Source of the DNA: a virus
Taxonomy: Duplodnaviria > Heunggongvirae > Uroviricota > Caudoviricetes
DNA: 64,000 nucleotides
IMG/VR virus record: IMGVR_UViG_3300031992_004563
Location: 265,798 to 329,797 of that record
Direction: 5' to 3' (one strand)
Below the pieces are notes generated by a model, which was given only the letters and a program-made list of their open reading frames with translations, did no database searches and was not told where the DNA came from. The position numbers and the translations under genes are program-made. Of this stretch, positions 13,159-46,415 are shown one piece after another (position 1 is the first letter of the stretch; the number at the start of each line of letters is the position of its first letter).

Positions 13159-13232
13159 TACCTCGAGTGGGATTCTAACCCACAACTCCCATCTTAGAAG
13201 GATGGTACTCTATACAGTTGAGTTATCGAGGC
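13159..13232 (-). tRNA. tRNA-Arg (anticodon UCU, reads AGA)
   Basis: The minus strand reads GCCTCGA-TA-ACTC-AACTGTATA-GAGT-A-CCATC-CTTCTAA-GATGG-GAGTT-GTGGG-TTAGAAT-CCCAC-TCGAGGT-A. Acceptor, D, anticodon and T stems all pair, and loop positions 34-36 are TCT. Confidence 0.7.
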
Positions 13233-25763: not shown

Positions 25764-27907
25764 TGAAATACTTTACATTTGAATAGTTTAGTCGTTCTGA
25801 TACAGCAAAAAGGAAAAATATAGATAATTCTGTTCCGTCTGATCTTAGACCACATGCTGAAGAATTAATTAATAATATATTAGATCCTTTACGTGATGCG
25901 TGGGGTAGTGATTTATATTTAACCTCTGCCTATCGTGGTTATGCACTTAATAAAGCTGTAGGTGGTTCTACGACATCTGCACATTCTTATGCGTATGCAG
26001 CTGATTTAGTTCCAAAAAATGGAAAAACTCTTGAATTTAAAGAGTTTGCAATGAAATGGCTTCTTAATAATGGAGTCAATTTTGATTAGTTTATTGATGA
26101 ATATAGTGGAAAAAGTTCATGGGTTCATATAGGTATTCGTAATGGTAGTGGAAATTAGAGAAAACAATATTTAAAATACCTTAATGGAAAATACACATCA
26201 ATTAATCCAAATATATATAAGCCTGGTTCTAACTCACAATCTTCTACGTCATCTGCGTTACCAAGTTTTGGTGGTTCATCTTCTAGTTCTTCACAATCAA
26301 CAGGAATTAATGTTACTGAAATAACAACCGGTGGCAGTACACAAACTGGTAGCACTGAAGGATTATTAAAAGGTCGTTCAGTCTATTTAAAAGATATAGA
26401 TTATGAAGGCATTAAAGCAAACGATGTTTTTGCAAAAGATGAATCAGGTGAGCCATTGCTTGATGAAAATGGAGATTTTATTATTTCTGACGCATATTTA
26501 ATGGATGGTGCAAATGAATCTGAATCTGATGCTATTGAAAGCACTGATGAATTAGATCCAGAACCATTTGATTTTGATATGTCATCTATTACTATTGAAA
26601 ATACTGAATAGATGAAAGGCATTCAATATAATGCCGATGGTTCATATGTTGTTAAATAGAGTAAAACCATTCAAGAAATAATGGCATTAGTTCAACAATG
26701 GTGGCAAATGATTCAATCTTTAAAGAAAATTGATTTTAAACATATTTAGGATTCAATTAAAAACGTAAAAGCAGAGACTGAAAATGCAGAGACTCCATCT
26801 ATTAATGCAATGGTTTATATGAAAGCAGCATTCGATATGTATGGACATGCATATAGAGAAGGAATGACTTGCCCAATTTGTGGAAAGAAAGCAAGATTTT
26901 TACCACCTGGTGGATATTGTTCCATTGAGTGTTTGTTAAAAGCTGTAAAAGATAAATCACTTGCATTTCTAATGTCTCCTAATGATAAGTATGGTTGGCT
27001 TCAAGAAATTATTGATCAATTATGTGCGGTATTGGATTTAACAAATTTATTAATTAATTCAATAGTATTAATTCCTGACATTATTAGAGAATTGGCATAG
27101 CTTCCATAGGAATATAAAGATTATGTATAGGCAAAAATTGCTGAAGGGTTTGCAGAATTATAGGAATTAATTCAAAAAGCAATGGTTAAGAAAAATGAAT
27201 TGCTTGCAAAAATATTAAAACCTATTAATTTTGGTATTATTGCAAAACCTGTTGCAATGGCAATGCAGGTAATTGAAGTTATTAGAAATGCATTATAGGT
27301 TGCATAGGAAGCATTTAATATGGCATTTGATGTTGTTAAAATGATATTAAGTAAATTATCATTACCAAGTGTTGCACCAGGATTAGTTCTTCCAGCAGAA
27401 TCATTTGCGTGGTCATTAACTCCAAGATCATTTATAAGCCCAATGCCATATACATGCCCAGATGCAGGTAAAATATTTGTGGTTTTGCCTGGTGGCAGCG
27501 GTGCACCTATACAGGGTTTAAAACCTTTGTTGCCATCAGCACTATAGGATCTTAATATGGAATCAATAGATTCAGTAATTTAGGGATTATTTCCACCATT
27601 AACGCCAATGGATTATTATTTAGAGCCAGAATTATTTCAAATAAGATATCTGTTCAGTGATCAAAGTGATTTAGTTTTTTAGATTAGGCAACAATTAGAA
27701 GATTTTTTAAGATGCGGTCCAGATTATCTTCCAAAATTTGAAAATTTATTACCAATTAAAATGTTTACATTTGGAAAAGGCACACCTAATGAAATATAGA
27801 TTCCACTTCCAAATATGGGATATTTATGGTTTTTATTAGGATTACTGGATGCATGGGCACCTCATAGCCAATCAATGGTAGGAAGTATATTAAATCCTGC
27901 AATATAA
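25763..27907 (+). CDS. Large protein with an N-terminal peptidase M15 (D-Ala-D-Ala carboxypeptidase/lysin-like) domain; many in-frame TAGs; candidate tail-associated lysin or tape-measure-like protein
   Basis: Motifs LTSAYRGYALNKAVGGSTTSAHSYAYAADL match the Zn-dependent M15/VanY-type fold. Track ORFs 26810 and 27320 and the TAGs at 25784 and 26087 are all in frame 2. Terminates at TAA 27905-27907. Confidence 0.55.
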
Positions 27908-28946: not shown

Positions 28947-29708
28947 TCAGTCTATGTGCCAATAATTATTCCTAATAACTTTATATTCATATACATTCTG
29001 TGTATTATAGTCAATATCATCATTTTGTTTATCACGAATATCAGAAGGATCAATATTTTTATCTTCTTGAATAACTAATGGAATTGATGGAATATATGTA
29101 TTTAATTCTGGTTTATCCATTGGAGCCCTGTATAAAGGCCCATCAGCAACCCAAAGAAATTTATCAATAAAATCCAAATAATATTCCATTCCTTTTCGTG
29201 AAAGAGCATACATTGATGTAGTCCATAACCCAACACCTGGGTGTTTTACCCACCATTTAGACTCATCCATATAGTCTTTAATTCTTGGATCAGCCGTAAA
29301 ACCACCAAATTGAAGAATATCAAAATCTTCTGGAATATTTTTTAAAAATTCTTCCCATGCAACATGATCTTTTAAAAATCTAATATCATCTTCCATAATA
29401 AGACAATATTCATATCCTTGGTCATATGCTTGTTTAACCATTGAATAATGATTATGCGTGCAATCATATTCATTAGGTTTTGTTAATTTACCTAATTTAT
29501 TTTGATTTAGAACATACATCATCACTTTATTGTATTTCGAAAATGGTACAGTTGTTCTAATATCAAGTTCTTCTTGTGTATATAAATCTTCTAAAAGACC
29601 AAAATCTCGAAGTTGTTTAAGCATTAAATCTCTCCTATCCTTACGAGTGGAGAGATTTAACATAAAGATATGTTGAAATTTTGAAAGTAGTGTATAGTAA
29701 ATATTCAT
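28947..29708 (-). CDS. Glycosyltransferase family 25-like (LPS/LOS glycosyltransferase)
   Basis: N-terminal motif LNLSTRKDRRDLMLKQL is typical of GT25. Confidence 0.6.
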   Translation of the reverse strand: MNIYYTLLSKFQHIFMLNLSTRKDRRDLMLKQLRDFGLLEDLYTQEELDIRTTVPFSKYNKVMMYVLNQNKLGKLTKPNEYDCTHNHYSMVKQAYDQGYEYCLIMEDDIRFLKDHVAWEEFLKNIPEDFDILQFGGFTADPRIKDYMDESKWWVKHPGVGLWTTSMYALSRKGMEYYLDFIDKFLWVADGPLYRAPMDKPELNTYIPSIPLVIQEDKNIDPSDIRDKQNDDIDYNTQNVYEYKVIRNNYWHID

Positions 29709-31012: not shown

Positions 31013-32965
31013 TTACTTCACCTCTTTAAACTCTACATTATCCTTTTTAGATTTTGTATGTTTTACAGGTTCTTCTGTTGAAGGTGTTTCAACCTCTACT
31101 GGAATTTTTGATTCCTCTGGCTTTGGCAACGATGTTGTAGGTTGATTTTTACCAAGAAGATTCAAAATTTGAGGTTTAAGACCATCATTAACCATGCTAA
31201 CCATTGGAGCAAACTTCTCAAGCCAAGTCTTAGCAAATTCAGCGCTTGTATTCTTATCACCATAAACTGTAACATTGCCAAGTTGAATATGTTCAAGAGT
31301 CTTAGATTGTGCTTCAGCAATACCCTTCCATTGATCAGTCATCATATATTGAACAACTACCTCAGGATTTCCACCAGCGGTTTCAACCATTTGCTTAAAT
31401 GCAAGTGCTGGTGCCAATGCAATTTGTTGTTGCTGTTCAGCCTCTGCCATAAGAGATGCTCGTTTACCCTCAGCTTGTGCAAGCAAAATAGATTTTTCAC
31501 CTTCTGCATCTGCAAGTTTCTTTTTACGAATTGCTTCAGCTTGTGCTTCAGCCTCTTTCAAAATTTTTGCAGCGGCTGCTTCTGCCTCAAGTGTTGCAAC
31601 AGCCTTTGTCTGTTCAGCTTTAATTGTTGCTTGCTCTTTTTCTTTTTGAGCCTTAACAATCATTGTTGCTTGTAACTCGGTTTCTTGAGCTTTAGCCTTC
31701 ATTTCATTAACTTTCACTTGTTGTTCTTGCTCAGTTTGTGCAACGGCCATTCGAGCTTCAACCTTTGCCATACCAGTAACCTTTTCTGCTTCTGCCTCAG
31801 CCTTGCCTGCTTCTGCTTTTGCTTTAGCAACATCAATAGTTGCGGTCTGTTCTGCTACACCTGCCTTTTTATTAGCCTCTGCTGCTTTTTGACGGCGTTC
31901 AGATTCATATTCAGCAATGCTTGCTTGTTTCTTTTGAGTTGCCTCAGAAATCTTTGCCTCTTTTAATTGTTCTGCCTCAGCTGCTTTTGCTTCAGCATCA
32001 GCCTTTGCTTTAGCAACATTAACAGCTGCAATGGATTCTTGCTCTGCTTTTGCAGAATCAGCTTTTTGACCAGCAGTAGCAACTGCAATTGTTTGTTCTG
32101 CCTCAGCGTCGGCAACACCTTCAGCACGTTCCTTTTCAGCTTGCGCCAATTGAATTGCCTGATCCTTACGAGCTTGTGCAACTGCAACCTCTTGTTCCTG
32201 AACTGTTTTAGCAACTGTTGCCAATTGTTCACGCTCAGCCTCTGCAACTTGAATTGCTTCCTCCTTTTTAGTATTGGCAATTTTAATTTTACCTTGCTTT
32301 TCTTGCTCTGCAATATCTGCTTCTGCTTGCGCCTTTGCTTGAGTTGCGGCTTTCTTACCCAAGTTTACAATATAGTTTGCGTCATCATCAATATTAGAAA
32401 TATTAATATTAATAATACCAAAACCAACTTTATTCAACTCCAACTCAATCTTTTGCTTTGCATTCTCAAGGAACTTATTACGGTCAGCGTTAATTTCCTC
32501 AATAGGCATTGTTGCCATAATAGCACGAGTTTCACCAATAAGAATATCCTCAATTTGGCTATCCATTGCTCGTACATCAGAACTTAAGAAACGAGCTGCT
32601 GCATTTTGCATAAGGGTATCAGTTGTTCCAATACCAGTAATCAATGTTACAGGAATAGTTACTTTAATGTTTTGTGAAGATAGACCTGTAATATCGGCTT
32701 TAATCTTGTGAGGTACTAAACTCATCATTTTATATTCCTGGATAACTGGCCATACAAAAGTACCACCGCCATGAATAATTTTTGATGTAAGGATACGATC
32801 TACAGATTTACCATTTTCATCAAATGATTTCTTTGTGCCAGCCTTACCAAATACTACAAGAATTTGGTCACTCGGGCAACGACGATAGCGAGATAAAATC
32901 CAAATAGTTGTCAAAACAACCACAAGTACAATAACTGCTACAGTAATAAAAATTGATACATTCAT
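31013..32965 (-). CDS. Flotillin-like SPFH/band-7 domain protein with a long Ala/Glu/Gln-rich coiled coil
   Basis: N-terminal TM helix, an SPFH-like domain, then an EA-repeat flotillin-type region. 650 aa. Antisense ORFs in this region are low-complexity artefacts. Confidence 0.75.
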   Translation of the reverse strand: MNVSIFITVAVIVLVVVLTTIWILSRYRRCPSDQILVVFGKAGTKKSFDENGKSVDRILTSKIIHGGGTFVWPVIQEYKMMSLVPHKIKADITGLSSQNIKVTIPVTLITGIGTTDTLMQNAAARFLSSDVRAMDSQIEDILIGETRAIMATMPIEEINADRNKFLENAKQKIELELNKVGFGIININISNIDDDANYIVNLGKKAATQAKAQAEADIAEQEKQGKIKIANTKKEEAIQVAEAEREQLATVAKTVQEQEVAVAQARKDQAIQLAQAEKERAEGVADAEAEQTIAVATAGQKADSAKAEQESIAAVNVAKAKADAEAKAAEAEQLKEAKISEATQKKQASIAEYESERRQKAAEANKKAGVAEQTATIDVAKAKAEAGKAEAEAEKVTGMAKVEARMAVAQTEQEQQVKVNEMKAKAQETELQATMIVKAQKEKEQATIKAEQTKAVATLEAEAAAAKILKEAEAQAEAIRKKKLADAEGEKSILLAQAEGKRASLMAEAEQQQQIALAPALAFKQMVETAGGNPEVVVQYMMTDQWKGIAEAQSKTLEHIQLGNVTVYGDKNTSAEFAKTWLEKFAPMVSMVNDGLKPQILNLLGKNQPTTSLPKPEESKIPVEVETPSTEEPVKHTKSKKDNVEFKEVK

Positions 32966-32998: not shown

Positions 32999-33523
32999 TT
33001 ATACATAAAATTTTCCATTATCAGCTGATATAATAATTACTTCATCGCCAAGTTTATGTTTTTCATTCAATGAATACACTTTAATTTCTTGACCATTGAA
33101 ATCTGGAATATTTACATAATATGCATTTTCTTCATCTGTGCATACAATTGAAACTACACCTTTATGCCCAATAAAATCTTCTGGTGTTTGACCAACAGGT
33201 TCATGCCGTAATTTGAGCAATAATATTCCTATATAAAATAGAATTACTGTAAATGCAATTCCAAGTACAATAGCAATCAAATAATCATACCAAACAAGTG
33301 TACCATTATATGATACTAATGACAACCATCCAGCAAAACCCATTAAGAAATGAATAATTCCTTTAAATGATAGAATATCACCCCATGACAAATCACCAAA
33401 TCCATCACCATCAAAGTCAATATCCGTATCAAAATCAGTTCCACCAAACATGGCAATAAAAAATTGAATAAGGAAAATTGAATAGGCTATAATAGCCAAA
33501 GAATAATAAATTGTTGTTAACAT
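32999..33523 (-). CDS. NfeD-like membrane protein (YuaF/YqiJ-type), the usual partner of SPFH proteins
   Basis: Polytopic N-terminus with a DxDxD-rich loop and a C-terminal soluble OB-like domain. Lies immediately upstream of the flotillin gene. Confidence 0.6.
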   Translation of the reverse strand: MLTTIYYSLAIIAYSIFLIQFFIAMFGGTDFDTDIDFDGDGFGDLSWGDILSFKGIIHFLMGFAGWLSLVSYNGTLVWYDYLIAIVLGIAFTVILFYIGILLLKLRHEPVGQTPEDFIGHKGVVSIVCTDEENAYYVNIPDFNGQEIKVYSLNEKHKLGDEVIIISADNGKFYV

Positions 33524-35470: not shown

Positions 35471-36049
35471 ATGAAAGTAATTATTATTGAGGGGCCTGAT
35501 AATACTGGTAAAAATACATTAATAAATCATGTTTTGGATAATAATGAAATTGTGAAAATTATTCATTGCAGTAAGCCAAAACAATTGGACAATGTTTTAT
35601 ATCATCAATTCATTTCATTTAAAAAATTAGCTGAAGAAGCAATTAAAGATTATAGTTTAAATTCAGATGAGGTTTTAATTTATAATCGTTATCATATTGG
35701 CGAATATGTTTATGGTCAATTATATAGAGATGAAAATCCTGAACAAATTCTTGAAGTAATTCATCTTATTGAAGATACAATATTAAATGCAATTCCTCAA
35801 GATAATATTTCATATATTCAATTGTTATCTCGTTCAGCAAAACTTTTACAAAACAATGATGATAATAAATCTTTATCTAATGCAAGACTTGATTTAATTG
35901 AAAAAGAAAATCAATTATTTAAAGAAGCTTTTGAAAAATCAAAATTTAAAAACAAACATATAATTTATATCGATAAAGAAAATACAGATACATTTAAAAC
36001 AAGAGAACAAATTATTGACGAATTTGATATTTTTACAAAAAATGATTAA
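35471..36049 (+). CDS. P-loop (d)NMP kinase-like protein (thymidylate/deoxynucleotide monophosphate kinase family)
   Basis: N-terminal IIIEGPDNTGKNT P-loop in the typical dNMP/thymidylate kinase context. Confidence 0.5.
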   Translation: MKVIIIEGPDNTGKNTLINHVLDNNEIVKIIHCSKPKQLDNVLYHQFISFKKLAEEAIKDYSLNSDEVLIYNRYHIGEYVYGQLYRDENPEQILEVIHLIEDTILNAIPQDNISYIQLLSRSAKLLQNNDDNKSLSNARLDLIEKENQLFKEAFEKSKFKNKHIIYIDKENTDTFKTREQIIDEFDIFTKND

Positions 36050-36058
36050 TAATAGTTT

Positions 36059-36778
36059 ATGTTAAAAACTGAAGATATTAAAAATCTATTAAAAGAAAAA
36101 TATAAAAATGAAGAATTTAGAGTAACTAAATCTGGTGTAAAAACTGTTGAACTTCAAGGTATTCAGTTTGAAGCTGATAAAGATTCTATTATTCGTGAAC
36201 CAAATTATGATTATGCAAATAGGGAAATTCAATGGTATGAATCACAATCATTAAATGTTAATGATATTCCAGGTGGAGCACCAACAATTTGGAAACAATG
36301 TGCAGATGTAAATGGTGATATTAATTCAAATTATGGTTGGATGATTTATTCAAAGGAAAATGGCTCACAATATAATAACTGCGTTTGGCAATTAGTTAAT
36401 GACCCAACTACAAGAGAAGCTTGTATGATTTATAATAGACCAAGTATGCATGTTGATGCAACATCAAATCATAAACATGATTTTTGTTGTACTTATGCAG
36501 TTCAATGTTTCTTAAATGAAGTTAATAGATATCACACATCGCCAGATGGTGATAAAGTTAAAATTGGTTTAGATTATTATACATTAGATTATATTGTATA
36601 TCAAAGAAGTTGTGATGCAGTATTTGGTTATAATAATGATGTTTTATGGCATACATATGTACGTGATAAAATGCTAAAAGATTTTAATGAAATGGGTTTA
36701 AATGTTAAAAAAGGCATAATAAATTATAATTGTGGCAGTTTACATGTTTACGAGAGACACTTTAAGTTCTTAGACTAA
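36059..36778 (+). CDS. Thymidylate synthase/pyrimidine hydroxymethylase family enzyme, divergent (Cys-Cys in place of the canonical Pro-Cys-His)
   Basis: YQRSCDAVFGYNNDVLWH aligns with ThyA YQRSCDVFLGLPFN. The active-site region HDFCCTYAVQCF aligns with PPCHAFFQFYV. Confidence 0.6.
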   Translation: MLKTEDIKNLLKEKYKNEEFRVTKSGVKTVELQGIQFEADKDSIIREPNYDYANREIQWYESQSLNVNDIPGGAPTIWKQCADVNGDINSNYGWMIYSKENGSQYNNCVWQLVNDPTTREACMIYNRPSMHVDATSNHKHDFCCTYAVQCFLNEVNRYHTSPDGDKVKIGLDYYTLDYIVYQRSCDAVFGYNNDVLWHTYVRDKMLKDFNEMGLNVKKGIINYNCGSLHVYERHFKFLD

Positions 36779-36802
36779 TAACTTAATTAATATATAAAAT
36801 GA

Positions 36803-36900
36803 AGGCTAGAAATTTAATTTCTAGCCTTTTATATTTTGCATAATGAATAATTTTTAATTCATTATGCTGCAAAATACTGCATAATGAATAATTTTTAAAT
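36803..36900. repeat. Terminator hairpin (GGCTAGAAATT…AATTTCTAGCC) followed by two tandem ~33-bp direct repeats, each a perfect palindrome (GCATAATGAATAATTTTTA(A)ATTCATTATG)
   Basis: Direct reading of 36803-36900 between convergent genes. Confidence 0.5.
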
Positions 36901-37212
36901 CATTATGACAAAATTCTTTGCTGAATCAAGTTCATTATCTGTACATACCAATGTATGTGCTCTATTAATACCTTGTAAACTCAATGTTTCCAAACTTGGA
37001 TTTACTGATGCCACAATAAACAAATCATAATCATTTAAACTTGTTGCATCCTTTAATTCACCTGTAATTGTATTATAGTTGTCAGTGTTAAGATAACGTG
37101 TACAAATTACTGCATCCTTAATTTGGCGATCTGTATACTTTTCAAGCTTGTGTACAAAGGTGTTAATTTTTTCTTGATTTTCTGTTGTTGCTCTTACGAT
37201 AATTGTTTTCAT
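36895..37212 (-). CDS. Hypothetical protein
   Basis: 105-aa ORF. Confidence 0.45.
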   Translation of the reverse strand: MKTIIVRATTENQEKINTFVHKLEKYTDRQIKDAVICTRYLNTDNYNTITGELKDATSLNDYDLFIVASVNPSLETLSLQGINRAHTLVCTDNELDSAKNFVIMI

Positions 37213-37306
37213 GCTTCATTAATATAAATTTTTGATTTATATATTATATGTTGGTATTTTAGAATGTTTCATTTTTTAATAAATATATTGAAAATAAATG
37301 TATTTT

Positions 37307-38425
37307 ATGAATAAAAAACAATTATATGAATCAATAATGTCTTCTGTTTCTAAAGAGGTTAAAAAGGCTTTATTAGAATATAGAACAAAATCTGTAGATA
37401 CATATGATATAAATCTAAAAGATGTTGAATAGTATTTAAAAACTACATTACAACAATGGATTTATGCAAAAATTAAAAGTATTCAAGGCTTACGCTATGA
37501 ATTTTGGAGTTGGGGTGATTCTGGAGCAATATATGTATATGTTGGATCTATATATCCTAATCAACCTATAAATATTACTATTTCTAATAAATCATATTAT
37601 AGAGATATTCGATCAGACTTACAAAAAATACAAGATTACCTTAAAGATCATAAAGAATTTCAAATAACATCTTCTAGAATAGCAAGAGATCAACGTTTAG
37701 AATGTAGATATTTTGTTGAAAAAGATAAAGATTTATATGATGCCATACAAAATGCAAAGAATAAATTTGAACAAGATGTTGAAGAAGCTAATACAGATGA
37801 ATTTGCACCAACAGAAAGAGATTGGATTAAGATGGTTGGATATATGAATAATCATTCAAATCCAGAACGTGTTGCAAAATCTTGTAAAGAACCAAGAAAA
37901 ATTGTTGCAAGATATATAATTGCTAGAACTCTTGGTTGGGATGAAGCTGCACATGAATTTAAGTATAAAATTTTATCCGAACATATTTTAAGTGAAGCTC
38001 AACTTGAAGCATATAGAAGAAAATATGCAACATATAATATTCCAGATGATATAAAGGAATTAATAGAAGATTTTAAAGAAGCTGATGAAACTGGTGGTTT
38101 AAATAGAAATATAGAACATGCTGATATATTGCCAAATCAACTTAAAAAATATATACATGATAATATAAACATTAAATCTTATACAATTGAAATTCCAGAA
38201 GATAAAAATGTAGTTCCAATTAAAAAGACTGGAAGATATAGAAGTGGATTTGGATATAATTATATTCCAGTTGGCAATGCAAAATGTGTGATTTTACATA
38301 TTACATTAATAAATGGACAAACTAAAGATTTATTATTTGTTTATAAACATAATAATAATAAACAATGTTTTATTACAACAAGAGATTTATATAATATATC
38401 ATATTTTGATAATAATGATTTTTAG
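37307..38425 (+). CDS. Hypothetical protein with one in-frame TAG (37430-37432)
   Basis: ATG at 37307 and the track ORF 37832-38425 share frame 2. No other stops lie between them. Confidence 0.45.
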
Positions 38426-38482
38426 GGAGCAAATCCAAAAACATCAGCATATACTCTAGATACAATTATAAATCAATAAAAT

Positions 38483-40311: not shown

Positions 40312-40698
40312 TTATTTTGATTTTTTAGTTCTTGTTTTCTTTGGTTTTTCTTCTATTTCACCTTTAGCGATTTTCTCAGCTTTTTCTTTTTCTTTAGCCT
40401 CACGTTTCAATCGGCGTTGTTCATCACCCCAGGCTTTTGCACGTTCAACGAGTTCTTTATGTTTTTGCTCAGCTTCTTCAGGGTGTTCACGTTCCCAATT
40501 AATTTGGTCCCAAACAAAACTTCCATAACCAAGTTTCCAACTATGATAATGAGGACACATTAAAAACCAATGGCTATTACCTTTATATTTTTCAATACAT
40601 GCACCTTTCATTATGCATGTTTTCTTACATACATCCTCTTGAAATTGAGGAACATCGCTAGCTTTATAAAAGTCTTTATTTGCCATATTATTCTTCAA
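40312..40698 (-). CDS. Hypothetical protein (Cys/His-rich N-terminus, lysine-rich tail)
   Basis: 128-aa ORF. Confidence 0.45.
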   Translation of the reverse strand: MKNNMANKDFYKASDVPQFQEDVCKKTCIMKGACIEKYKGNSHWFLMCPHYHSWKLGYGSFVWDQINWEREHPEEAEQKHKELVERAKAWGDEQRRLKREAKEKEKAEKIAKGEIEEKPKKTRTKKSK

Positions 40699-41560
40699 TA
40701 AGATTCATTTCTATGAGCATGCTATATAATTTTTTCAAATCACATGCATAGTATCCATAAGAACAATATCCACCATAATAATCAGATTCGCCTCGTTCCT
40801 CTACAGTTACAGTTTCACGATAAAGTTTCTTATATTGAAGCATTGAAATGTTAGGACATACTTCAGTAAGCAAATCATCAAATTCTTTAAATTCGCTTGG
40901 TTGGGCTTCAGCACTAATATTACCACTAGCACCAGTATAATCACCCCATGTCCCGCCAAGACACCATTCTTCACTTCTCATTTCATCTTGTTTCATCCAA
41001 GATTCACGTATTTTAAACAAAGATTCATACTTATTCATTTTATGTACCTCCATTTCTTTAATTACAAATTCAATTTCACTAAATTCTTTAGATAGACCAT
41101 CAATATCAGGTTTTTCAAATTCTGCATGCTTAATAGTAATATGTGCCTTACGATCTTGTTGACGAATGCTATCATTATATAAACATGTATCTCTATCTTC
41201 TTTAAAATATACAAATTGAATTTTAACATGTTCACTATCAAAAATATAATGTGTACATTCATTATAAATGGCTTTAACCAATTTATGTTGTGTTTCATTG
41301 GTTAAAAATAATCCATCTATAATCCAATGATTATAATTTGCATTATGATGTATAATTGAATAGCAAAAACTTGAGTCTCTTAAAACATTTGTAAAAGATC
41401 TTTTCTCACGTTTAAGATAATCTTTATCAAAATCAATGTAGCATGTATTTGAATTAAATGTAGATAAAAACTTTTCACCATTATTGGCACTTTGTGCATA
41501 ATGAGTTTTACCACTACCAGGCAATCCAATTAAAATTTCTACTAATACTTGATTTTTCAT
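40688..41560 (-). CDS. P-loop kinase, polynucleotide kinase-like (Walker A GLPGSGKTH)
   Basis: N-terminal ILIGLPGSGKTHYA resembles PNK/AAA_33-type kinases. Lies immediately downstream of the RNA ligase gene. Promoter motif at 41579-41627. Confidence 0.5.
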   Translation of the reverse strand: MKNQVLVEILIGLPGSGKTHYAQSANNGEKFLSTFNSNTCYIDFDKDYLKREKRSFTNVLRDSSFCYSIIHHNANYNHWIIDGLFLTNETQHKLVKAIYNECTHYIFDSEHVKIQFVYFKEDRDTCLYNDSIRQQDRKAHITIKHAEFEKPDIDGLSKEFSEIEFVIKEMEVHKMNKYESLFKIRESWMKQDEMRSEEWCLGGTWGDYTGASGNISAEAQPSEFKEFDDLLTEVCPNISMLQYKKLYRETVTVEERGESDYYGGYCSYGYYACDLKKLYSMLIEMNLIEE

Positions 41561-41661: not shown

Positions 41662-43335
41662 TCAATTTTCATCTGGATTTTCTTCACCATATCTTTCTTG
41701 CATTTCATAATCTGATGTAACACCTTTATCCATATCTTCAGCTTCCTTACCAAGGAATTTCAAACATTTAAGTTTGAATGCTTCTGCTACAGGGTCATCA
41801 TTAATTCTAAGAACGATACCTTCACGAGGAAGTTCATTTTTACACATTGGTTCATTTTCTTCCATTCCAAAGTTTTTATCCTTTTTCATTCTAGAAAGAA
41901 CATTTTCATTCCAATGATTTCTAAGATCCAAATCAGGATAAAGATCTTTCATTAAGCCATTATACAAAATTGTAATTGGTTTAATTTTTGAAGCATCATT
42001 AGTATTATTTTCTTTATCACGTTTTTGAAGTGCAGGAATAAGAGTATGCAATGTATAATCATGTACATCTTGAACATTAAATTCATATACATCCCCATTT
42101 TCAAGTACATGTTTAATACGGTAAATCATTAAATAATTATCACCTGTTTTACAACCATAGTCATAAACTTTTCCACCAAGTGATTGGATTCCCGATGTAG
42201 AATTTGTTACATATCCACAAATTTCTCCATAAAATGTCATTCCTTGAGGAATAAAATCTTTAAGGATTTTGTAATATGTTGCCCAAATATCTACTCCATA
42301 AAAACCTCCAGACTTGCCACCATATTTAAATCTAAACAATGATTTAAATTTATCCCAAAAAGTAATTTCTGGTTCATTTTGGTTTTTACGTTTCTTTTTC
42401 TTAAACATTGATTTCAATGTGCTTGTAATATGAAGCCACCATGCATAAATTATTTGGTAAATAATTGCAATCATATTTTGATTTTTAATTACACCACGAG
42501 AGCTATAAATTACATCATAGCCTTCAGTAGTAAATTGCAAAACTTTAGGCAAATATACAAAAGCTTTTTCATACAAACCACCATACTTAGGTTTATGAAC
42601 TTTTACATTACCAAAAATCGCTGATGAACCATGTTCCTTAACGGTAATTGATACTGAAGTTTCAGGTTTAATTCTATTCATTGAACGTTGAAGTTGTTCA
42701 GTATCATAATGAAATGCAAATTGTCCAGGAATCATACGATCATATTTTTTAATTTGCTTTTCATGACGGCCTTTTTTAACTCCACCATTTCGGCCTTTTA
42801 CTTCAGGAACATATGCTTTTACAAACAAACGTTCACCTACAGTATCAAAATCTTCACCAAGATGTGCAGACCAATCAAAATTTTCCAAGTCTGCTTCGTA
42901 TTCACCCATTTGGTATGGAGAAATAAGATAACCCATTGACATTACACCACGAAGTTTCTTCATACGAACACGACAGTTCTTACCAAAATAACCTTTATTA
43001 AGATTCAAATAATGTTGAATCTCTTCTTCAGATGCATTTTGTTTTCTCATTTTTTCCAAATGAGGACCTACATCTTGATAATTTGAATTAAGTGTGATAT
43101 CATCAAATTGATTAGTTGAAGATAGAAACAAACTATCAAGTTGACATTCATTGGCTACATAAATCATATAGCTTCCTGTTTTAACCAAATCTTTACGAAC
43201 TACGATATCTCTGCCTTCAACCATCACTGTGGCAAGAAAATCGGAATTTTCAATTGGTGTCAATTCACCAATTTGAACAACAGTTGCACAATATTCATGT
43301 GACATGTCTTTTGATTGTGATAATACATTTTCCAT
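41662..43335 (-). CDS. ATP-dependent RNA ligase-like protein (N-terminal OB-like domain as in DraRnl/NgrRnl-type ligases; motif I KEHGS; motif IV EGIVLR; motif V KLKCLKF)
   Basis: N-terminus …YCATVVQIGELTPIENSDFLATVMVEGRDIVVRKD… resembles the N-domain of Rnl5-type ligases. Nucleotidyltransferase motifs are present. Confidence 0.55.
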   Translation of the reverse strand: MENVLSQSKDMSHEYCATVVQIGELTPIENSDFLATVMVEGRDIVVRKDLVKTGSYMIYVANECQLDSLFLSSTNQFDDITLNSNYQDVGPHLEKMRKQNASEEEIQHYLNLNKGYFGKNCRVRMKKLRGVMSMGYLISPYQMGEYEADLENFDWSAHLGEDFDTVGERLFVKAYVPEVKGRNGGVKKGRHEKQIKKYDRMIPGQFAFHYDTEQLQRSMNRIKPETSVSITVKEHGSSAIFGNVKVHKPKYGGLYEKAFVYLPKVLQFTTEGYDVIYSSRGVIKNQNMIAIIYQIIYAWWLHITSTLKSMFKKKKRKNQNEPEITFWDKFKSLFRFKYGGKSGGFYGVDIWATYYKILKDFIPQGMTFYGEICGYVTNSTSGIQSLGGKVYDYGCKTGDNYLMIYRIKHVLENGDVYEFNVQDVHDYTLHTLIPALQKRDKENNTNDASKIKPITILYNGLMKDLYPDLDLRNHWNENVLSRMKKDKNFGMEENEPMCKNELPREGIVLRINDDPVAEAFKLKCLKFLGKEAEDMDKGVTSDYEMQERYGEENPDEN

Positions 43336-43691: not shown

Positions 43692-45071
43692 TTAAAATAA
43701 CTCTTCGCTTTTTGGCTTTTCTTTAGTCTTTGGCTTTGTTTCTTCTTCATCCTCAATAGGTGTATTATCCAATGCACATAATTCATTATAGTATTCATTT
43801 TCACCATCGTGGAAGCAGTCATCAACCATTTTTTGTGCAATAGAACGTGCATCACAATTTTTCTTAAATGCATCAAAAATCCTATTGCGTAACTCATCAT
43901 ACTTTTCTTTATTACTTGCAAGCTCATCCATTTGTGCAAGACATTCATCAAGATTTGATAAGTCCTTTTTAATGAATACACCAAGTCCTAATTCAAGTGC
44001 TGTTTTATTTAGACACTTTGTGTTTTCATCATACATACGACATGCATTACCTGCATTCCAATCTAACAATGGAATTGAACCCATTTGAATAATCTCAAAT
44101 ACTGAATATTCAAAATCATCTCCATAACATCCATCAGTTTTAAGATGGAAAAAGTCACATCCAAATGCAGACTTTGCAACGCATCTCATTCCTTCTTCAC
44201 GTTTATATGCATCAAATACATAACACCAACCTTTTTCACGTTTAGGGGTATCAAGCATTGGATCATCATATGCAATACCATTTTCTTCTCTCCACTTTTT
44301 ATCTGAAGCCATTATACAAGCCTTAGATGGAAGACGGTTTCCTTGCTCATCAAATGAATAAAGCAAGTCAGGAATTGTAGATACATTAATTGTACGTTTA
44401 ATACCACGCATTTCCAACTCATAATCATGTGCATAAAATTTATCACGACCACGAAGTAAACGAGTTGGGTCTTTAAATCCAGAATGACGACCAAGATAAG
44501 TTATTCGACGTAATTTCTCATCAAATGGAACCCATTGTTTCTTATCTTCATCTGAATAATTATGTGGAAGAATTAATTGAACAAAACGTTTTCTAAATTC
44601 TTCTTCACCACACGCTGCACAAATTTTTTGTGCTACCATTGCCTTTGGTGCAAATGTAATAATTTTATCAAATGCCAACCAAAATTCTGAATTATGCAAT
44701 AGTGGTCCATAATATGCAGCAAATCCCAATACATTATGATCATTACATACAATTGCTTTTCTTGTAGTAATTTTATTCATAACCAAATCCATCCAGAGAT
44801 TATGATATTTTTCATCTGCTTTTTTCTCCATAATGGAATTAATGATAACCAAATCAGCTTCATTAATATGATTAACTGTATTTTCAGAATAATCATATTC
44901 TACGGCGAATGGAATGCTTTGTGTGCCACCATCCATCTCAGCCTTTTCATGTGCTTTTACATAAATAACTTCAACTTCATGGCCAGCAAGCTTCAAGCCT
45001 TTATTTAATTCTATAACATATCGGGTTACACCAGAACCCTCAATGCGTGCCATCAATTGTACAATTTTCAT
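43692..45071 (-). CDS. Glycosyltransferase, GT4-like N-terminal domain
   Basis: N-terminus MKIVQLMARIEGSGVTRYVIELNKGLKLAGHEVEVIY is typical of GT-B/GT4 enzymes. Confidence 0.5.
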   Translation of the reverse strand: MKIVQLMARIEGSGVTRYVIELNKGLKLAGHEVEVIYVKAHEKAEMDGGTQSIPFAVEYDYSENTVNHINEADLVIINSIMEKKADEKYHNLWMDLVMNKITTRKAIVCNDHNVLGFAAYYGPLLHNSEFWLAFDKIITFAPKAMVAQKICAACGEEEFRKRFVQLILPHNYSDEDKKQWVPFDEKLRRITYLGRHSGFKDPTRLLRGRDKFYAHDYELEMRGIKRTINVSTIPDLLYSFDEQGNRLPSKACIMASDKKWREENGIAYDDPMLDTPKREKGWCYVFDAYKREEGMRCVAKSAFGCDFFHLKTDGCYGDDFEYSVFEIIQMGSIPLLDWNAGNACRMYDENTKCLNKTALELGLGVFIKKDLSNLDECLAQMDELASNKEKYDELRNRIFDAFKKNCDARSIAQKMVDDCFHDGENEYYNELCALDNTPIEDEEETKPKTKEKPKSEELF

Positions 45072-45074
45072 ATA

Positions 45075-46415
45075 TTAAAATAAACTTTGTTTTGTTGCTA
45101 TATTAAGTACTTCTTGTTTTGTATTATCTTGAAATGCTACATTAGAAGTATGTTCTCGATTATTATATTCCCAATTATTCAAAATGTTTACAACTTGAGA
45201 AACAATAAATTTCGCTGTGTTAACTGGAACATTTTGACCAATTTTTGCAAGATTTGTTTTATCTCCATATATAATAAAATCTTCTGGCATACCCATTAAT
45301 GAAAGATATTCCCTTATTGTGCAAAATCTCTTACCAGTATAATGAATCATATTAGGTATTGATCTAAATTGAACAGATGGAAAATAATCCTTAAATACCC
45401 ATGCATCTTCGCCATAATAATTCAAACCTTGTGAAGTTTTTTCAAAGATATGTTTAAAATACTTTTCAACCTTTGCCTTTTCTTCATCAGTGTATTTATC
45501 AGATTCTTTAACAAATTTCAAAAAATCTTCAAGTTTACCAGTTTTCATTATATATGTTATAATGTTTCTTTTATCTTTTATTTCATCTGCCCAATTTTCA
45601 CCATAATTTTTAACATTATAATCAATAGCTGCGTAATTATGAATAAATGATTCTACTGGTGTTTGTTGAGGAGCGTCCTTTGATATTGATTCAAAAAATT
45701 CTGGAATAAGAATAGAATCTTTTTCATAACCAAACAATGGTGGTTTTTGTTCTGTGTTTTTTCCTTGCCATTGAGTAAAAATAACAAATGTTCTTGGTCT
45801 GCGTTGGCAATTATGATGAAGAACTGTATCTGTTTTATAATAAAGAACAGAATATCCTGCATTCTTTGCAATATCCTCCAATGATGCACGAACATCATCG
45901 CCTCTGTCACCAACCAATGTAGGTGCATTTTCAAACACATATACTTTAGGTTTAATAACATTTAAAGTATAATATGTAATCCATTGCATATTACAATTTC
46001 TGGATTCTTTTGTTTCATTAGCAGCTTTAGTAACAACTGATAAACCTGAACATACAGGAACTGCAACAACTAAATCCATATCTGAAAAATCTGGCAATGG
46101 AACATCATCTTCAAGTCCTTTTCGTACTTTTAAATCAGTTGAATGAATGTCCATATCAAACATCTTTCTATTTGTTATTTGATAATATGGAACTTTATAT
46201 CCATCCTTTGTAGATTTAAATAACCATTCTCTTAAATTATATTCATTACCTGCACCTGTTATAATAGGATTATCTTTATCACCAGCTACAGTTATTGCAT
46301 CAAGCCCATCATACGATAAAATCCATTCGGCTTGATGGCCAATGGCTTTTAACGCTCCTATATACATTCCGCCTGTTAATGGTTGAATACATCCCCATTT
46401 AATTTCTTTTGACAT
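45075..46415 (-). CDS. DNA (cytosine-5)-methyltransferase family protein, divergent
   Basis: Motif I-like PLTGGMYIGA, motif IV-like AVPVCSGLS, motif VI YVFENAP, motif VIII CQRRPR, motif X IGQNVPVNTAKFI. Confidence 0.55.
   Translation of the reverse strand: MSKEIKWGCIQPLTGGMYIGALKAIGHQAEWILSYDGLDAITVAGDKDNPIITGAGNEYNLREWLFKSTKDGYKVPYYQITNRKMFDMDIHSTDLKVRKGLEDDVPLPDFSDMDLVVAVPVCSGLSVVTKAANETKESRNCNMQWITYYTLNVIKPKVYVFENAPTLVGDRGDDVRASLEDIAKNAGYSVLYYKTDTVLHHNCQRRPRTFVIFTQWQGKNTEQKPPLFGYEKDSILIPEFFESISKDAPQQTPVESFIHNYAAIDYNVKNYGENWADEIKDKRNIITYIMKTGKLEDFLKFVKESDKYTDEEKAKVEKYFKHIFEKTSQGLNYYGEDAWVFKDYFPSVQFRSIPNMIHYTGKRFCTIREYLSLMGMPEDFIIYGDKTNLAKIGQNVPVNTAKFIVSQVVNILNNWEYNNREHTSNVAFQDNTKQEVLNIATKQSLF

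What the first reader, a model, noticed from the sequence alone, without database searches (positions are those of the whole stretch)
35471..36778. Divergent thymidylate-synthase-family enzyme (Cys-Cys instead of Pro-Cys-His) next to a dNMP kinase: candidate pyrimidine hypermodification
36059-36778 aligns with ThyA across the core (YQRSCDAVFG) but has FCC where ThyA and dCMP hydroxymethylases have PCH. It is immediately preceded by a P-loop dNMP kinase, like the gp42/gp1 pair T4 uses to make and phosphorylate hm-dCMP. This points to a non-canonical nucleotide, such as 5-hydroxymethyl or other 5-substituted pyrimidine, in the phage DNA.
Basis: partly seen in the sequence, partly recalled or inferred. 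Interest (0 to 1): 0.65.

Follow-up and report, generated by a model that had tools for sequence, protein, structure and literature searches.

The report
T4-type hydroxymethylcytosine genes in Lak-like megaphage
A two-gene operon in a roughly 500-kb gut megaphage related to the Prevotella Lak phages encodes an ordinary T4-type dCMP hydroxymethylase and a thymidylate-kinase-like nucleotide kinase, so the phage probably replaces cytosine in its DNA with (glycosylated) 5-hydroxymethylcytosine; this is a known pathway in a new host lineage.

Summary
Both ORFs are real. ORF 36059-36778 belongs to the thymidylate-synthase family, but it is not an odd outlier. It is a full-length homologue of T4 gp42 dCMP hydroxymethylase: 45.6% identity, PDB E=4e-52, and a predicted fold with TM 0.83 to 1B5D. 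By contrast it is about 21% identical to ThyA and to the RB69 5-hydroxy-dCMP synthase.

Every published diagnostic residue fits a 5hm-dCMP synthase:
- the catalytic Cys144;
- Asp141, three residues upstream of it;
- Ser90 and Tyr92;
- Asp194 at the ThyA Asn177 position, which indicates dCMP;
- Asp186 retained at the ThyA Asp169 position, so the enzyme is not a 5-hydroxylase.

T4 has Phe-Met-Cys-Thr, and this protein's clade has Phe-Cys-Cys-Thr in 116 of its 120 best relatives.

The upstream ORF has a thymidylate-kinase fold. It is homologous to RB69 gp45 and not detectably similar to T4 gp1. A homologue sits directly upstream of the hydroxymethylase in three other phage lineages.

A DNA alpha-glucosyltransferase homologue and a C5-methyltransferase-like gene lie 7 kb away. 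The major capsid protein is 63.6% identical to that of Lak megaphages, and the window shows TAG recoding.

Verdict: a new member of a known kind, of modest interest.

The parts
35471..36049 (+). Thymidylate-kinase-fold P-loop nucleotide kinase (192 aa), the first gene of the operon. It is the inferred 5hm-dCMP (dNMP) kinase.
   Evidence: - phrog_761 'thymidylate kinase', E=7e-11.
- AlphaFold model pLDDT 91.5. The Foldseek top hits are thymidylate kinases, E about 1e-5, TM about 0.6.
- BLASTP E=4e-9 to RB69 gp45, the Tmk-like kinase of the RB69 cytosine-hypermodification cluster (PMC13326640).
- Below threshold for Pfam and TIGR00041.
- No PDB sequence hit.
- Homologues lie directly upstream of the hydroxymethylase in L016 (71% id), L018 (45% id) and L005 (40% id).
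36059..36778 (+). T4 gp42-type dCMP hydroxymethylase (5hm-dCMP synthase), 239 aa. It carries a clade-specific Cys143 next to the nucleophile Cys144 and a variable beta-hairpin insertion at about residues 154-175.
   Evidence: - PF00303, 47.8 bits; phrog_160, E=2.9e-42.
- PDB 1B49/1B5D E=4e-52, 45.6% identity.
- Model pLDDT 93.9. Foldseek to T4 dCH E=1e-24, TM 0.83, against MilA/ThyA E about 1e-10.
- Diagnostic residues E56, W78, S90, Y92, R119, D141, C144, R183, S184, D186, D194, H229 and Y231 are all present.
36801..36829 (.). Bidirectional intrinsic-terminator-like hairpin between the convergent hydroxymethylase gene and ORF 36895-37212(-). It closes the two-gene operon.
   Evidence: 13-bp stem followed by a T-run, found on both strands. 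Two such sites were found against 0.3 expected. The RNA fold is -17.7 kcal/mol, z = -4.1.
43692..45071 (-). DNA alpha-glucosyltransferase (T4 AGT) homologue, 459 aa. It is the inferred post-replicative glycosylase of 5hmC in DNA. The sugar and anomer are not known.
   Evidence: - phrog_2888 alpha-glucosyltransferase, E=3.6e-36, nearly full length.
- Pfam PF11440 AGT, 34.7 bits against a cut-off of 25.
- PDB 1XV5/1Y6F T4 AGT, E=1.1e-11.
- The tblastn hits are T-even a-gt genes and Bacillus phage G gp306.
45075..46415 (-). C5-cytosine DNA methyltransferase-like gene, 446 aa, 3 nt upstream of the AGT homologue. It is associated with the module, but its role is unexplained.
   Evidence: - PF00145, 66.6 bits.
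- Motifs PVCSGLS, FENAP, QRRPRTF and GQNVPV are conserved in homologues.
- Homologues lie within 10 kb of the hydroxymethylase in L003/L017, L005 and L018.

Best explanation
Genes 35471-36049 and 36059-36778 form a two-gene operon for pre-replicative synthesis of 5-hydroxymethyl-dCTP in a Lak-related megaphage.

Proposed steps:
1. The second gene product is a T4 gp42-type dCMP hydroxymethylase. Cys144 attacks C6 of dCMP. Asp194 recognises and protonates the cytosine. Methylene-tetrahydrofolate donates the one-carbon unit. A water activated by Asp141, positioned with Ser90 and Tyr92, adds to the exocyclic methylene, giving 5hm-dCMP instead of a methyl product.
2. The first gene product, a thymidylate-kinase-fold kinase, is inferred to phosphorylate 5hm-dCMP to the diphosphate.
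3. A nucleoside-diphosphate kinase, either host or phage, makes the triphosphate.
4. The phage polymerase incorporates it in place of dCTP.
5. After replication, the AGT homologue at 43692-45071 is inferred to glycosylate the 5-hydroxymethyl groups, protecting the DNA from host nucleases.

Shown by computation: family membership, active-site signature, folds, gene linkage and the presence of the transferase homologue.

Inferred: the actual product, the kinase substrate, the extent of cytosine replacement and the sugar.
For: Hydroxymethylase:
- Best solved-structure match is T4 dCH: E=4e-52, 180 bits. Every ThyA or MilA chain scores about 20 bits.
- 45.6% identity over 217 aligned positions.
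- 40-46% identity to T-even, Aeromonas and Klebsiella phage gp42 genes, many annotated as dCMP hydroxymethylase.
- About 21% identity to E. coli ThyA and RB69 gp48.
- The predicted structure (pLDDT 93.9) superposes on 1B5D with TM 0.83, E=1e-24. That is 14 orders of magnitude better than for MilA or ThyA.

Signature residues from the literature are all present:
- Asp three residues before the Cys, plus Ser-x-Tyr, mark hydroxymethylation (PMC6400193).
- N177D marks dCMP, L143D/E marks hydroxymethyl, and D169N marks 5-hydroxy-dCMP synthases (PMC13326640). Asp is retained at position 169 here.
- These residues are invariant across 36 clade members.

Kinase:
- Tmk fold.
- Homology to RB69 gp45.
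- Homologues lie directly upstream of the hydroxymethylase in three other lineages, and a different Tmk-like kinase lies directly downstream in L001.
- TS-homologue/Tmk/glycosyltransferase clusters also occur in RB69, DLP3 and RL38J1 (PMC13326640) and in Microbacterium phage Shamu.

Glycosylation:
- AGT homologue in the window.
- T4-type beta-GT or TAGT genes lie next to the hydroxymethylase in L005 and L018.
Against: - There is no biochemical or nucleoside data.
- No dCTPase/MazG, dCMP deaminase or gp1-type kinase was found in the 64-kb window. The window is only about 13% of the roughly 498-kb genome, so complete replacement of cytosine cannot be argued from it.
- One of the two phosphate-binding arginines contributed by the partner subunit (T4 Arg124, ThyA Arg127) is Glu120 here, and Glu/Gln/Asn across the clade.
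- The kinase fails the curated thresholds for Tmk families and lacks an obvious conserved lid arginine. Its substrate is therefore open.
- The conserved C5-methyltransferase-like neighbour has no obvious substrate if all cytosines are 5hmC.
Confidence: 0.78

Rival explanations
1. The hydroxymethylase assignment is right, but the upstream kinase is an ordinary dTMP (or broad dNMP) kinase supplying a 71% A+T genome. It would not be specialised for 5hm-dCMP, and a host or other phage kinase would phosphorylate 5hm-dCMP.
For: - The best structural matches are bona fide thymidylate kinases.
- phrog_761 is annotated as thymidylate kinase.
- Lak-A1 and Lak-B4 carry a 34-36% identical homologue with no window-like hydroxymethylase within 15 kb on either side. 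The kinase family is therefore not strictly tied to a hydroxymethylase.
Against: - A homologue sits directly upstream of the hydroxymethylase, in the same orientation, in four lineages at 40-71% identity. A second Tmk-like gene sits next to it in L001.
- Tmk-like kinases recur inside cytosine-hypermodification clusters of RB69, DLP3, RL38J1 and Shamu (PMC13326640).
- The protein is far below the equivalog cut-off for dTMP kinase: 18 bits against 83.
Confidence: 0.3
2. The TS homologue is a 5-hydroxy-dCMP synthase of the RB69 gp48 / DLP3 gp80 type, and the DNA carries O-glycosylated 5-hydroxycytosine.
For: - The gene neighbourhood type (TS homologue + Tmk-like kinase + glycosyltransferase) resembles the RB69/DLP3/RL38J1 clusters (PMC13326640).
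- The close relative L001 has a UDP-galactopyranose mutase next to the pair, as RL38J1 does.
Against: - The diagnostic D169N substitution is absent: Asp186 is retained and invariant in the clade.
- Only 19% identity, pairwise E=0.014, to RB69 gp48, against 45.6% to T4 gp42.
- Glu58 and Trp80, which are lost in RB69 gp48, are kept here.
Confidence: 0.03
3. It is a canonical thymidylate synthase or a dCMP/dUMP methylase or dUMP hydroxymethylase, making dTMP, 5-methyl-dCMP or 5hm-dUMP.
For: - Pfam and NCBIfam name the family only as 'thymidylate synthase'.
- 'YQRSCD' is identical to E. coli ThyA.
Against: - The ThyA equivalogs score 18-20 bits against cut-offs of 175-405.
- The Asn177 position is Asp, which indicates cytosine.
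- The Leu143 position is Asp and the Ser-x-Tyr water-binding pair is present, which indicates hydroxymethylation rather than hydride transfer (PMC6400193).
- A hydroxyl-dependent glycosyltransferase homologue is encoded nearby.
Confidence: 0.03
4. The clade-specific second cysteine (Cys143) and the beta-hairpin insertion change the chemistry, so that the enzyme makes a different C5 adduct, for example by trapping the exocyclic methylene with another nucleophile.
For: - 'DFCCT' is present in 116 of the 120 best relatives.
- The insertion varies in length between relatives.
- The neighbouring tailoring genes differ between relatives.
Against: - The position before the nucleophile is naturally variable: Met, Ile, Pro or Cys in enzymes of known or annotated function.
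- All residues implicated in water activation are intact.
- T4-type glucosyltransferases that need a hydroxymethyl acceptor co-occur with this clade.
Confidence: 0.05

Closest known systems
Bacteriophage T4 gp42, dCMP hydroxymethylase (PDB 1B5D, 6A9A)
   Same: - Same fold (TM 0.83), 45.6% identity and about the same length.
- Identical nucleophile, cytosine-specifying Asp, water-activating Asp, Ser-x-Tyr pair and Glu60 equivalent, and most phosphate ligands.
- 'INSNYGW' and 'GSLHVY.RHF' are shared verbatim.
   Different: - Cys instead of Met before the nucleophile.
- Glu120 instead of Arg124.
- An insertion of about 17 residues that extends a beta hairpin (residues 154-175).
- Found in a Lak-like megaphage of Bacteroidota rather than in a Straboviridae phage.
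T4 gp1 dNMP kinase (PDB 1DEK)
   Same: Proposed same role: phosphorylating 5hm-dCMP after the hydroxymethylase. Both are P-loop NMP-kinase-type proteins.
   Different: - No detectable sequence similarity.
- The nearest folds are thymidylate kinases, not 1DEK.
- In T4 the two genes are unlinked, whereas here they form an operon.
Tmk-like 'nucleotide kinases' of phage cytosine-hypermodification clusters (RB69 gp45, DLP3 gp78, RL38J1 gp214; PMC13326640) and Microbacterium phage Shamu gp46
   Same: - Homologous to RB69 gp45: 24% identity, E=4e-9.
- Same size and same Tmk fold.
- Same genomic habit of sitting beside a TS homologue and glycosyltransferases.
   Different: - In RB69, DLP3 and RL38J1 the cluster accompanies a 5-hydroxy-dCMP synthase. 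For Shamu the TS homologue keeps the hydroxymethylase-type signature and is only annotated as thymidylate synthase.
- The function of these kinases is itself only predicted.
T4 DNA alpha-glucosyltransferase (PDB 1XV5/1Y6F; Pfam PF11440)
   Same: Homologous over most of its length: phrog_2888 E=3.6e-36, Pfam above cut-off, PDB E=1e-11.
   Different: - About 60 residues longer, and only about 23-35% identical in the aligned parts.
- Donor sugar and anomeric outcome are unknown.
- The cassette is absent from the close relatives L001 and L016. In L001 a 376-aa ORF plus a UDP-galactopyranose mutase lie beside the hydroxymethylase-kinase pair, at a different position in the locus.
Prevotella Lak megaphages (Lak-A/B/C; PMC6784885, PMC8346664)
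   Same: - Major capsid protein 63.6% identical over its full length.
- Genome of about 498 kb, about 29% G+C, in-frame TAG codons in some genes, and a kinase homologue.
   Different: - Non-structural genes are much more diverged, for example the RNA ligase at 27% identity.
- No AGT homologue appears among the Lak records.
- No Lak record was seen among the hydroxymethylase hits.
- The four Lak and huge-phage papers checked do not contain the words hydroxymethyl, thymidylate or glucosyl.

Membership tests
T4-type dCMP hydroxymethylase (5hm-dCMP synthase, TS superfamily) | Thymidylate-synthase fold / Pfam PF00303 above the gathering score | tested here: met
   47.8 bits against a cut-off of 24.3. 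Model pLDDT 93.9, TM 0.83 to 1B5D.
T4-type dCMP hydroxymethylase (5hm-dCMP synthase, TS superfamily) | Catalytic cysteine nucleophile (T4 Cys148 / ThyA Cys146) | tested here: met
   Cys144 aligns with it and is invariant in 15 and 36 sequences.
T4-type dCMP hydroxymethylase (5hm-dCMP synthase, TS superfamily) | Asp at the ThyA Asn177 position (T4 Asp179), which specifies cytosine | tested here: met
   Asp194 in 'YNND'. Rule taken from PMC6400193 and PMC13326640.
T4-type dCMP hydroxymethylase (5hm-dCMP synthase, TS superfamily) | Asp/Glu three residues upstream of the nucleophile (T4 Asp145, ThyA Leu143) plus Ser94-x-Tyr96, the hydroxymethylation signature | tested here: met
   Asp141, Ser90 and Tyr92 are all present. 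Signature defined in PMC6400193.
T4-type dCMP hydroxymethylase (5hm-dCMP synthase, TS superfamily) | Asp retained at the ThyA Asp169 position (Asn marks 5-hydroxy-dCMP synthases) | tested here: met
   Asp186 in 'RSCD', invariant in the clade. RB69 gp48 has Asn.
T4-type dCMP hydroxymethylase (5hm-dCMP synthase, TS superfamily) | Full set of phosphate-binding residues (T4 Lys28, Arg123', Arg124', Arg168, Ser169) | tested here: inconclusive
   Lys24, Arg119, Arg183 and Ser184 are kept. Arg124 is replaced by Glu120, and by Glu/Gln/Asn in the clade. From memory, the equivalent Arg179 of L. casei TS was reported to be non-essential.
T4-type dCMP hydroxymethylase (5hm-dCMP synthase, TS superfamily) | Converts dCMP and methylene-THF to 5hm-dCMP | not testable with these tools
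   Needs an enzyme assay or LC-MS.
Canonical thymidylate synthase ThyA | Pro-Cys-His at the nucleophile, Leu143, Asn177, and a score above the NCBIfam equivalog cut-offs | tested here: not met
   The motif is Cys-Cys-Thr, position 143 is Asp141 and position 177 is Asp194. The ThyA equivalogs score 18-20 bits against cut-offs of 175-405.
5-hydroxy-dCMP synthase (RB69 gp48 / DLP3 gp80 type) | D169N substitution (E. coli numbering) and similarity to validated members | tested here: not met
   Asp186 is retained. 19% identity and E=0.014 to RB69 gp48.
T4 gp1-type dNMP kinase | Sequence homology to gp1 (PDB 1DEK/1DEL) | tested here: not met
   No PDB hit at E<=1 other than spurious ones. 1DEK is absent from the 50 best of 115 significant Foldseek matches.
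Thymidylate kinase (Tmk) fold family | P-loop, Tmk-like fold, and a curated family score | tested here: inconclusive
   The fold is met: the top 8 Foldseek hits are Tmk, probability 1.00, TM 0.53-0.64. The curated scores are not met: no PF02223 hit, and TIGR00041 gives 18 bits against a cut-off of 83. The 'DRY' motif is 'NRY', and no conserved lid Arg is seen.
Phage Tmk-like nucleotide kinase of cytosine-hypermodification clusters (RB69 gp45 family) | Homology to RB69 gp45 and adjacency to a TS homologue | tested here: met
   BLASTP E=4e-9. Homologues lie directly upstream of the hydroxymethylase in the window, L016, L018 and L005.
T4 DNA alpha-glucosyltransferase (Pfam PF11440) | Family score above the cut-off and homology to T4 AGT | tested here: met
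   34.7 bits against 25. 1XV5 E=1.1e-11. phrog_2888 E=3.6e-36. Activity and sugar were not testable.

The most novel reading that the evidence does not exclude
Lak-lineage megaphages and several unrelated gut jumbo phages share a portable module of Tmk-like kinase and Cys-Cys dCMP hydroxymethylase. Interchangeable tailoring cassettes are attached to it: an AGT homologue here, beta-GT plus TAGT in L005, beta-GT in L018, a 376-aa protein plus UDP-galactopyranose mutase in L001, and DUF7487 elsewhere. These cassettes may produce 5hmC glycoforms not yet described, for example galactofuranosyl-5hmC. The recurrently linked C5-methyltransferase-like enzyme has an intact catalytic Cys and ENx and QxRxR motifs. 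It may act on 5hmC-containing DNA, or on residual cytosine, in a step that is not part of any known hmC pathway.
Probability: 0.15. Interest if true: 0.6.

Novelty: new member of a known kind. Interest (0 to 1): 0.3.

Why it matters
If the prediction holds, a branch of the uncultured Lak-type megaphages of Prevotella/Segatella packages cytosine-substituted, probably glycosylated DNA.

- This would affect how well such phages are recovered by enzymatic library preparation and how they are read by nanopore or SMRT methods.
- It would shape which restriction, CRISPR and type IV systems of gut Bacteroidota can act on them.
- It extends the T4 paradigm to the largest known gut phages.
- Relatives carry different tailoring genes beside the same hydroxymethylase. 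This points to where new DNA glycoforms and transferases could be mined.

The enzyme itself, however, is an orthodox dCMP hydroxymethylase. More than 3,400 homologues already exist in metagenomes, so the chemistry of the core step is not new.

Tried and rejected
1. A megablast of 7 kb around the locus against 50,697 phage genomes found nothing. The phage has no close cultured or deposited relative at the DNA level.
2. Pfam, NCBIfam and PDB sequence searches gave nothing significant for the kinase. Only PHROGs, a pairwise comparison with RB69 gp45 and structure prediction were informative.
3. I looked for the rest of a T4-like pathway in the window (dCTPase/MazG, dCMP deaminase, gp1, TET/JBP dioxygenase) with PHROGs on 47 ORFs and Pfam on 27 ORFs. 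None was found. The weak '2OG-Fe(II) oxygenase' PHROG hit of ORF 2452-3036 resolves to a PLOD-type glycosyltransferase domain in Pfam.
4. I tried to decide whether Lak-A/B/C encode a hydroxymethylase. No Lak record appeared in two spread listings of the tblastn hits, and none lies within 15 kb either side of their kinase homologues. The whole 540-kb genomes were not scanned, so absence is not proven.
5. The sigma-70 promoter scan is uninformative in this A+T-rich DNA: 30 hits against about 20 expected. The presumed host phylum also uses other promoter types.
6. I considered and rejected four alternative identities for the TS homologue on residue and similarity grounds: ThyA, dCMP methylase, dUMP hydroxymethylase and 5-hydroxy-dCMP synthase.
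7. A direct comparison with a validated dUMP hydroxymethylase such as SPO1 gp29 was not made. That exclusion rests on the Asp at the Asn177 position.
Full report
**What is at the coordinates**

The window is A+T-rich (about 25-35% G+C). They are 9 nt apart and both end in TAA. A 13-bp hairpin with flanking T-runs follows at 36801-36829. It scores as a terminator on both strands (2 sites found, 0.3 expected; RNA fold z = -4.1). It separates the pair from the convergent ORF 36895-37212. The two genes therefore look like a self-contained operon.

**The TS-family protein**

It passes Pfam PF00303 (47.8 bits, cut-off 24.3) and phrog_160 (E=2.9e-42).

- Against all PDB sequences the best match by far is T4 dCMP hydroxymethylase gp42: 1B49/1B5D, E=4e-52, 180 bits, covering residues 4-239. 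Every ThyA and the CMP hydroxymethylase MilA score about 20 bits.
- Identity to T4 gp42 is 45.6% over 217 aligned positions.
- In 50,697 phage genomes the best matches are gp42 genes of T-even-like phages of Citrobacter, Aeromonas, Klebsiella and Escherichia, at 40-46% identity. Many of them are annotated as dCMP hydroxymethylase. Microbacterium phage homologues follow at about 29%.
- Identity to E. coli ThyA and to the RB69 5-hydroxy-dCMP synthase gp48 is only about 21%.
- An AlphaFold model built on 36 clade members is confident (pLDDT 93.9). It superposes on T4 dCH with TM 0.83 and E=1e-24, against E of about 1e-10 and TM 0.6-0.7 for MilA and ThyA.

**Active-site reading**

Two papers give explicit residue rules.

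- The T4 dCH ternary-complex study (PMC6400193) defines the hydroxymethylation signature. [quoted passage not shown] Asp179 specifies cytosine and Glu60 protonates the cofactor.
- Lee et al. 2026 (PMC13326640) give three rules in E. coli numbering. N177D indicates a dCMP substrate. L143D/E indicates a hydroxymethyl rather than a methyl product. D169N is diagnostic of the newly recognised flavin-dependent 5-hydroxy-dCMP synthases.

In my alignments the window protein has the following residues:

| Window residue | Equivalent |
|---|---|
| Glu56 | Glu58/60 |
| Trp78 | Trp80 (E. coli) |
| Ser90, Tyr92 | T4 Ser94, Tyr96 |
| Arg119 | T4 Arg123 |
| Asp141 | Leu143 position |
| Cys144 | nucleophile |
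| Arg183, Ser184 | E. coli Arg166, Ser167 |
| Asp186 | Asp169, retained |
| Asp194 | Asn177 position |
| His229, Tyr231 | E. coli His207, Tyr209 |

This is the complete 5hm-dCMP synthase signature. It excludes the ThyA, dCMP-methylase, dUMP-hydroxymethylase and 5-hydroxy-dCMP synthase signatures.

The only departure among the substrate ligands is Glu120 where T4 has Arg124. The clade has Glu, Gln or Asn at this position. From memory, the equivalent arginine of L. casei TS was reported to be non-essential.

**The 'Cys-Cys instead of Pro-Cys-His' argument**

The motif is real (HDFCCT), but the comparison was mistaken. T4, T6 and Merlin gp42 have DFMCT, Microbacterium phage homologues have DFICT, and RB69 gp48 has EYPCT. 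Only ThyA has APCH. The residue before the nucleophile is simply variable.

Within this protein's own metagenomic clade, DFCCT is the rule: 116 of the 120 best homologues have it and 3 have DFMCT. Cys143 is nearly invariant in 36 aligned members.

The other visible difference from T4 is an insertion of variable length after 'FLN', about 17 residues longer here than in T4. The model renders it as an extension of a beta hairpin (strands 145-160 and 166-182).

**The kinase**

- It has a P-loop (GPDNTGKN).
- It gets no significant Pfam, NCBIfam or PDB sequence match. In particular it is not detectably related to T4 gp1.
- PHROGs places it in a 'thymidylate kinase' family (E=7e-11).
- A confident model (pLDDT 91.5) matches thymidylate kinases best (2PBR, 3N2I and others; E about 1e-5; TM about 0.6). 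Deoxycytidine kinase and PPK2 appear further down the list.
- It is homologous to RB69 gp45 (24% identity, E=4e-9). RB69 gp45 is the Tmk-like 'nucleotide kinase' that Lee et al. list, by computation only, in the RB69, DLP3 and RL38J1 cytosine-hypermodification clusters.
- Microbacterium phage Shamu has the same theme: TS homologue, glycosyltransferase, thymidylate kinase and MazG.

**Conservation of the pair and its surroundings**

The hydroxymethylase has more than 3,400 metagenomic homologues at E<=1e-10. The kinase has 111 at E<=0.001. One of these is 100% identical and lies on a 497,886-bp contig.

I examined seven distinct contexts:

| Context | Kinase | Other neighbours |
|---|---|---|
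| Window lineage | homologue directly upstream of the hydroxymethylase | AGT homologue and C5-MTase-like gene 7 kb away |
| L016 | homologue directly upstream, 71% identity | syntenic with the window; no AGT or MTase-like gene |
| L018 | homologue directly upstream, 45% identity | T4-type beta-GT; C5-MTase-like gene |
| L005 (380-kb contig) | homologue directly upstream, 40% identity | beta-GT plus TAGT; DUF7487; C5-MTase-like gene |
| L001 | a different Tmk-like gene directly downstream | 376-aa ORF plus UDP-galactopyranose mutase; no AGT or MTase-like gene |
| L003/L017 | none | C5-MTase-like gene directly upstream of the hydroxymethylase; DUF7487 |
| L019 | none | DUF7487 |

In the window the AGT homologue at 43692-45071 has these scores: phrog_2888 E=3.6e-36, PF11440 34.7 bits against a cut-off of 25, and T4 AGT 1XV5 E=1e-11.

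The linkage supports a functional tie between the kinase and the hydroxymethylase. The tailoring genes behave as swappable cassettes.

**Mechanism proposed**

1. The hydroxymethylase converts dCMP and methylene-THF to 5hm-dCMP. This rests on strong homology and signature evidence, but no assay.
2. The Tmk-like kinase makes 5hm-dCDP. This is inferred from linkage and fold.
3. A nucleoside-diphosphate kinase makes the triphosphate, and the phage polymerase incorporates it. This is inferred from the T4 paradigm.
4. The AGT homologue glycosylates 5hmC in DNA. The homology is shown; the sugar is unknown.

No dCTPase, dCMP deaminase or gp1-type kinase was found in the window. The window covers only about 13% of the genome, so whether replacement of cytosine is complete cannot be judged.

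**Which phage this is**

- The major capsid protein (62406-63926) is 63.6% identical over its full length to that of Prevotella phages Lak-A/B/C.
- The near-identical contig is about 498 kb, within the 476-660 kb range reported for Lak-like genomes (PMC11165621).
- As in Lak phages, which use code 15 with TAG read as Gln (PMC6784885, PMC8346664), reading TAG as sense merges fragments into long ORFs. Examples are 19148-21727 with 33 in-frame TAGs, 25763-27907 with 16, and 37298-38479 with 2. The last matches a 390-aa gene called on the related contig.
- The hydroxymethylase, the kinase, the AGT homologue and the methyltransferase-like gene contain no TAG and all end in TAA. Their ORF boundaries therefore do not depend on the genetic code.
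- Non-structural genes are far more diverged from Lak-A/B/C. The RNA ligase is 27% identical.
- Lak-A1 and Lak-B4 have a kinase homologue (34-36% identity) but no window-like hydroxymethylase within 15 kb on either side.
- No Lak record appears among the AGT hits.
- The four Lak and huge-phage papers checked do not contain the words hydroxymethyl, thymidylate or glucosyl.

**Comparison with what is known, and verdict**

The system works like the T4 hmC pathway. The central enzyme meets every sequence-testable defining feature of the T4-type dCMP hydroxymethylase family. It fails the defining features of ThyA and of the 5-hydroxy-dCMP synthases.

The kinase is a member of the phage Tmk-like kinase family typified by RB69 gp45. 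It is a functional analogue of T4 gp1, not a homologue.

The finding is therefore a new member of a known kind.

The more novel residue of the analysis has two parts. One is the exchange of tailoring cassettes among close relatives. The other is the unexplained but recurrent C5-methyltransferase-like partner. Its motifs PVCSGLS, FENAP, QxRxRTF and GQNVPV are invariant in five homologues. It should have no substrate if every cytosine is 5hmC.

Noticed in passing
window 19148-21727(+), 25763-27907(+), 4451-6601(+), 37298-38479(+; TAG at 37430-37432): Reading TAG as a sense codon merges fragmented code-11 ORFs into long ORFs with 33, 16, 8 and 2 in-frame TAGs respectively. This fits the code-15 recoding described for Lak megaphages. 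The DNA-modification genes use no TAG and end in TAA. The relative L001 encodes a release factor (PCRF/RF-1 domains).
   Followed up: partly
window 3651-4052(-): A phage-encoded tmRNA. ARAGORN gives the tag peptide GEDEYAMAA, and Rfam RF00023 scores 81.1 bits against a gathering score of 47. tmRNAs are known from huge phages.
   Followed up: yes
window 13158-13232(-): tRNA-Arg(TCT), found by ARAGORN and by Rfam RF00005 (61 bits). No suppressor tRNA(CTA) lies in this window.
   Followed up: partly
window 45075-46415(-); L003:8690-9946, L005:14643-15950, L017:8694-9950, L018:13534-14832: A C5-cytosine DNA methyltransferase-like protein with variant motif IV (PVCSGLS, not PCQ) and intact ENA, QxRxR and GQNVP motifs. 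It recurs within 10 kb of the Cys-Cys dCMP hydroxymethylase in 4 of 7 distinct phage contexts. Its substrate in a 5hmC genome is unexplained.
   Followed up: partly
L001:10677-13489 compared with window 43692-46415: The close syntenic relative L001 (263-kb contig) lacks the AGT + methyltransferase cassette between the homologues of window genes 41662-43335 and 47091-47723. Beside its hydroxymethylase, at a different position in the locus, it has a different Tmk-like kinase, a 376-aa ORF and a UDP-galactopyranose mutase (GLF). This suggests a different sugar on the modified base.
   Followed up: partly
L018:10699-11235: A second, short (178 aa) TS-like gene lies immediately downstream of the hydroxymethylase in this relative. 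It is 22% identical to the window protein.
   Followed up: no
window 1627-3036(-), 14275-15126(+), 28947-29708(-): More sugar-related genes: an NAD-dependent NDP-sugar epimerase/dehydratase next to a PLOD-type glycosyltransferase domain, a DUF6734 protein, and a family-25 glycosyltransferase that is conserved in L001 and L016 at about 70% identity. A code-15 ORF scan merges the epimerase ORF (1627-2448) and the downstream glycosyltransferase ORF (2452-3036) into one ORF, 1627-3123, with two in-frame TAGs. Whether any of these acts on DNA is unknown.
   Followed up: no
window 31013-32965(-) and 32999-33523(-): A flotillin/SPFH (Band 7) protein with a long Ala/Glu/Lys-rich coiled region lies next to a membrane protein that I judged NfeD-like from its sequence alone; no family search was run on that second ORF. 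This is an unusual pair for a phage.
   Followed up: no
window 40688-41560(-), 41662-43335(-), 50570-51247(-), 55363-56835(-), 54190-55359(-): An RNA-repair and nucleotide-salvage set: a P-loop kinase (weak AAA_33 hit) next to a 557-aa RNA ligase, a second RNA-ligase-like ORF, a tRNA CCA-nucleotidyltransferase, and a protein resembling nicotinamide phosphoribosyltransferase.
   Followed up: no
window 15232-18006(+), 18102-19127(+), 19148-21727(+): A 924-aa AAA/MoxR-type ATPase is followed by a protein with an HExxH metallopeptidase motif, and then by a TAG-rich ORF whose code-11 fragment 20660-21277 I read as vWA-like from its sequence alone. The only family hit for both 18102-19127 and 20660-21277 is PHROGs phrog_1314, 'HNH endonuclease'.
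   Followed up: no
L012:15001-15540 (Lak-A1), L013:15001-15567 (Lak-B4): The canonical Lak phages carry a 34-36% identical homologue of the Tmk-like kinase. It sits in a different neighbourhood, with no homologue of any other window gene within 15 kb on either side.
   Followed up: partly
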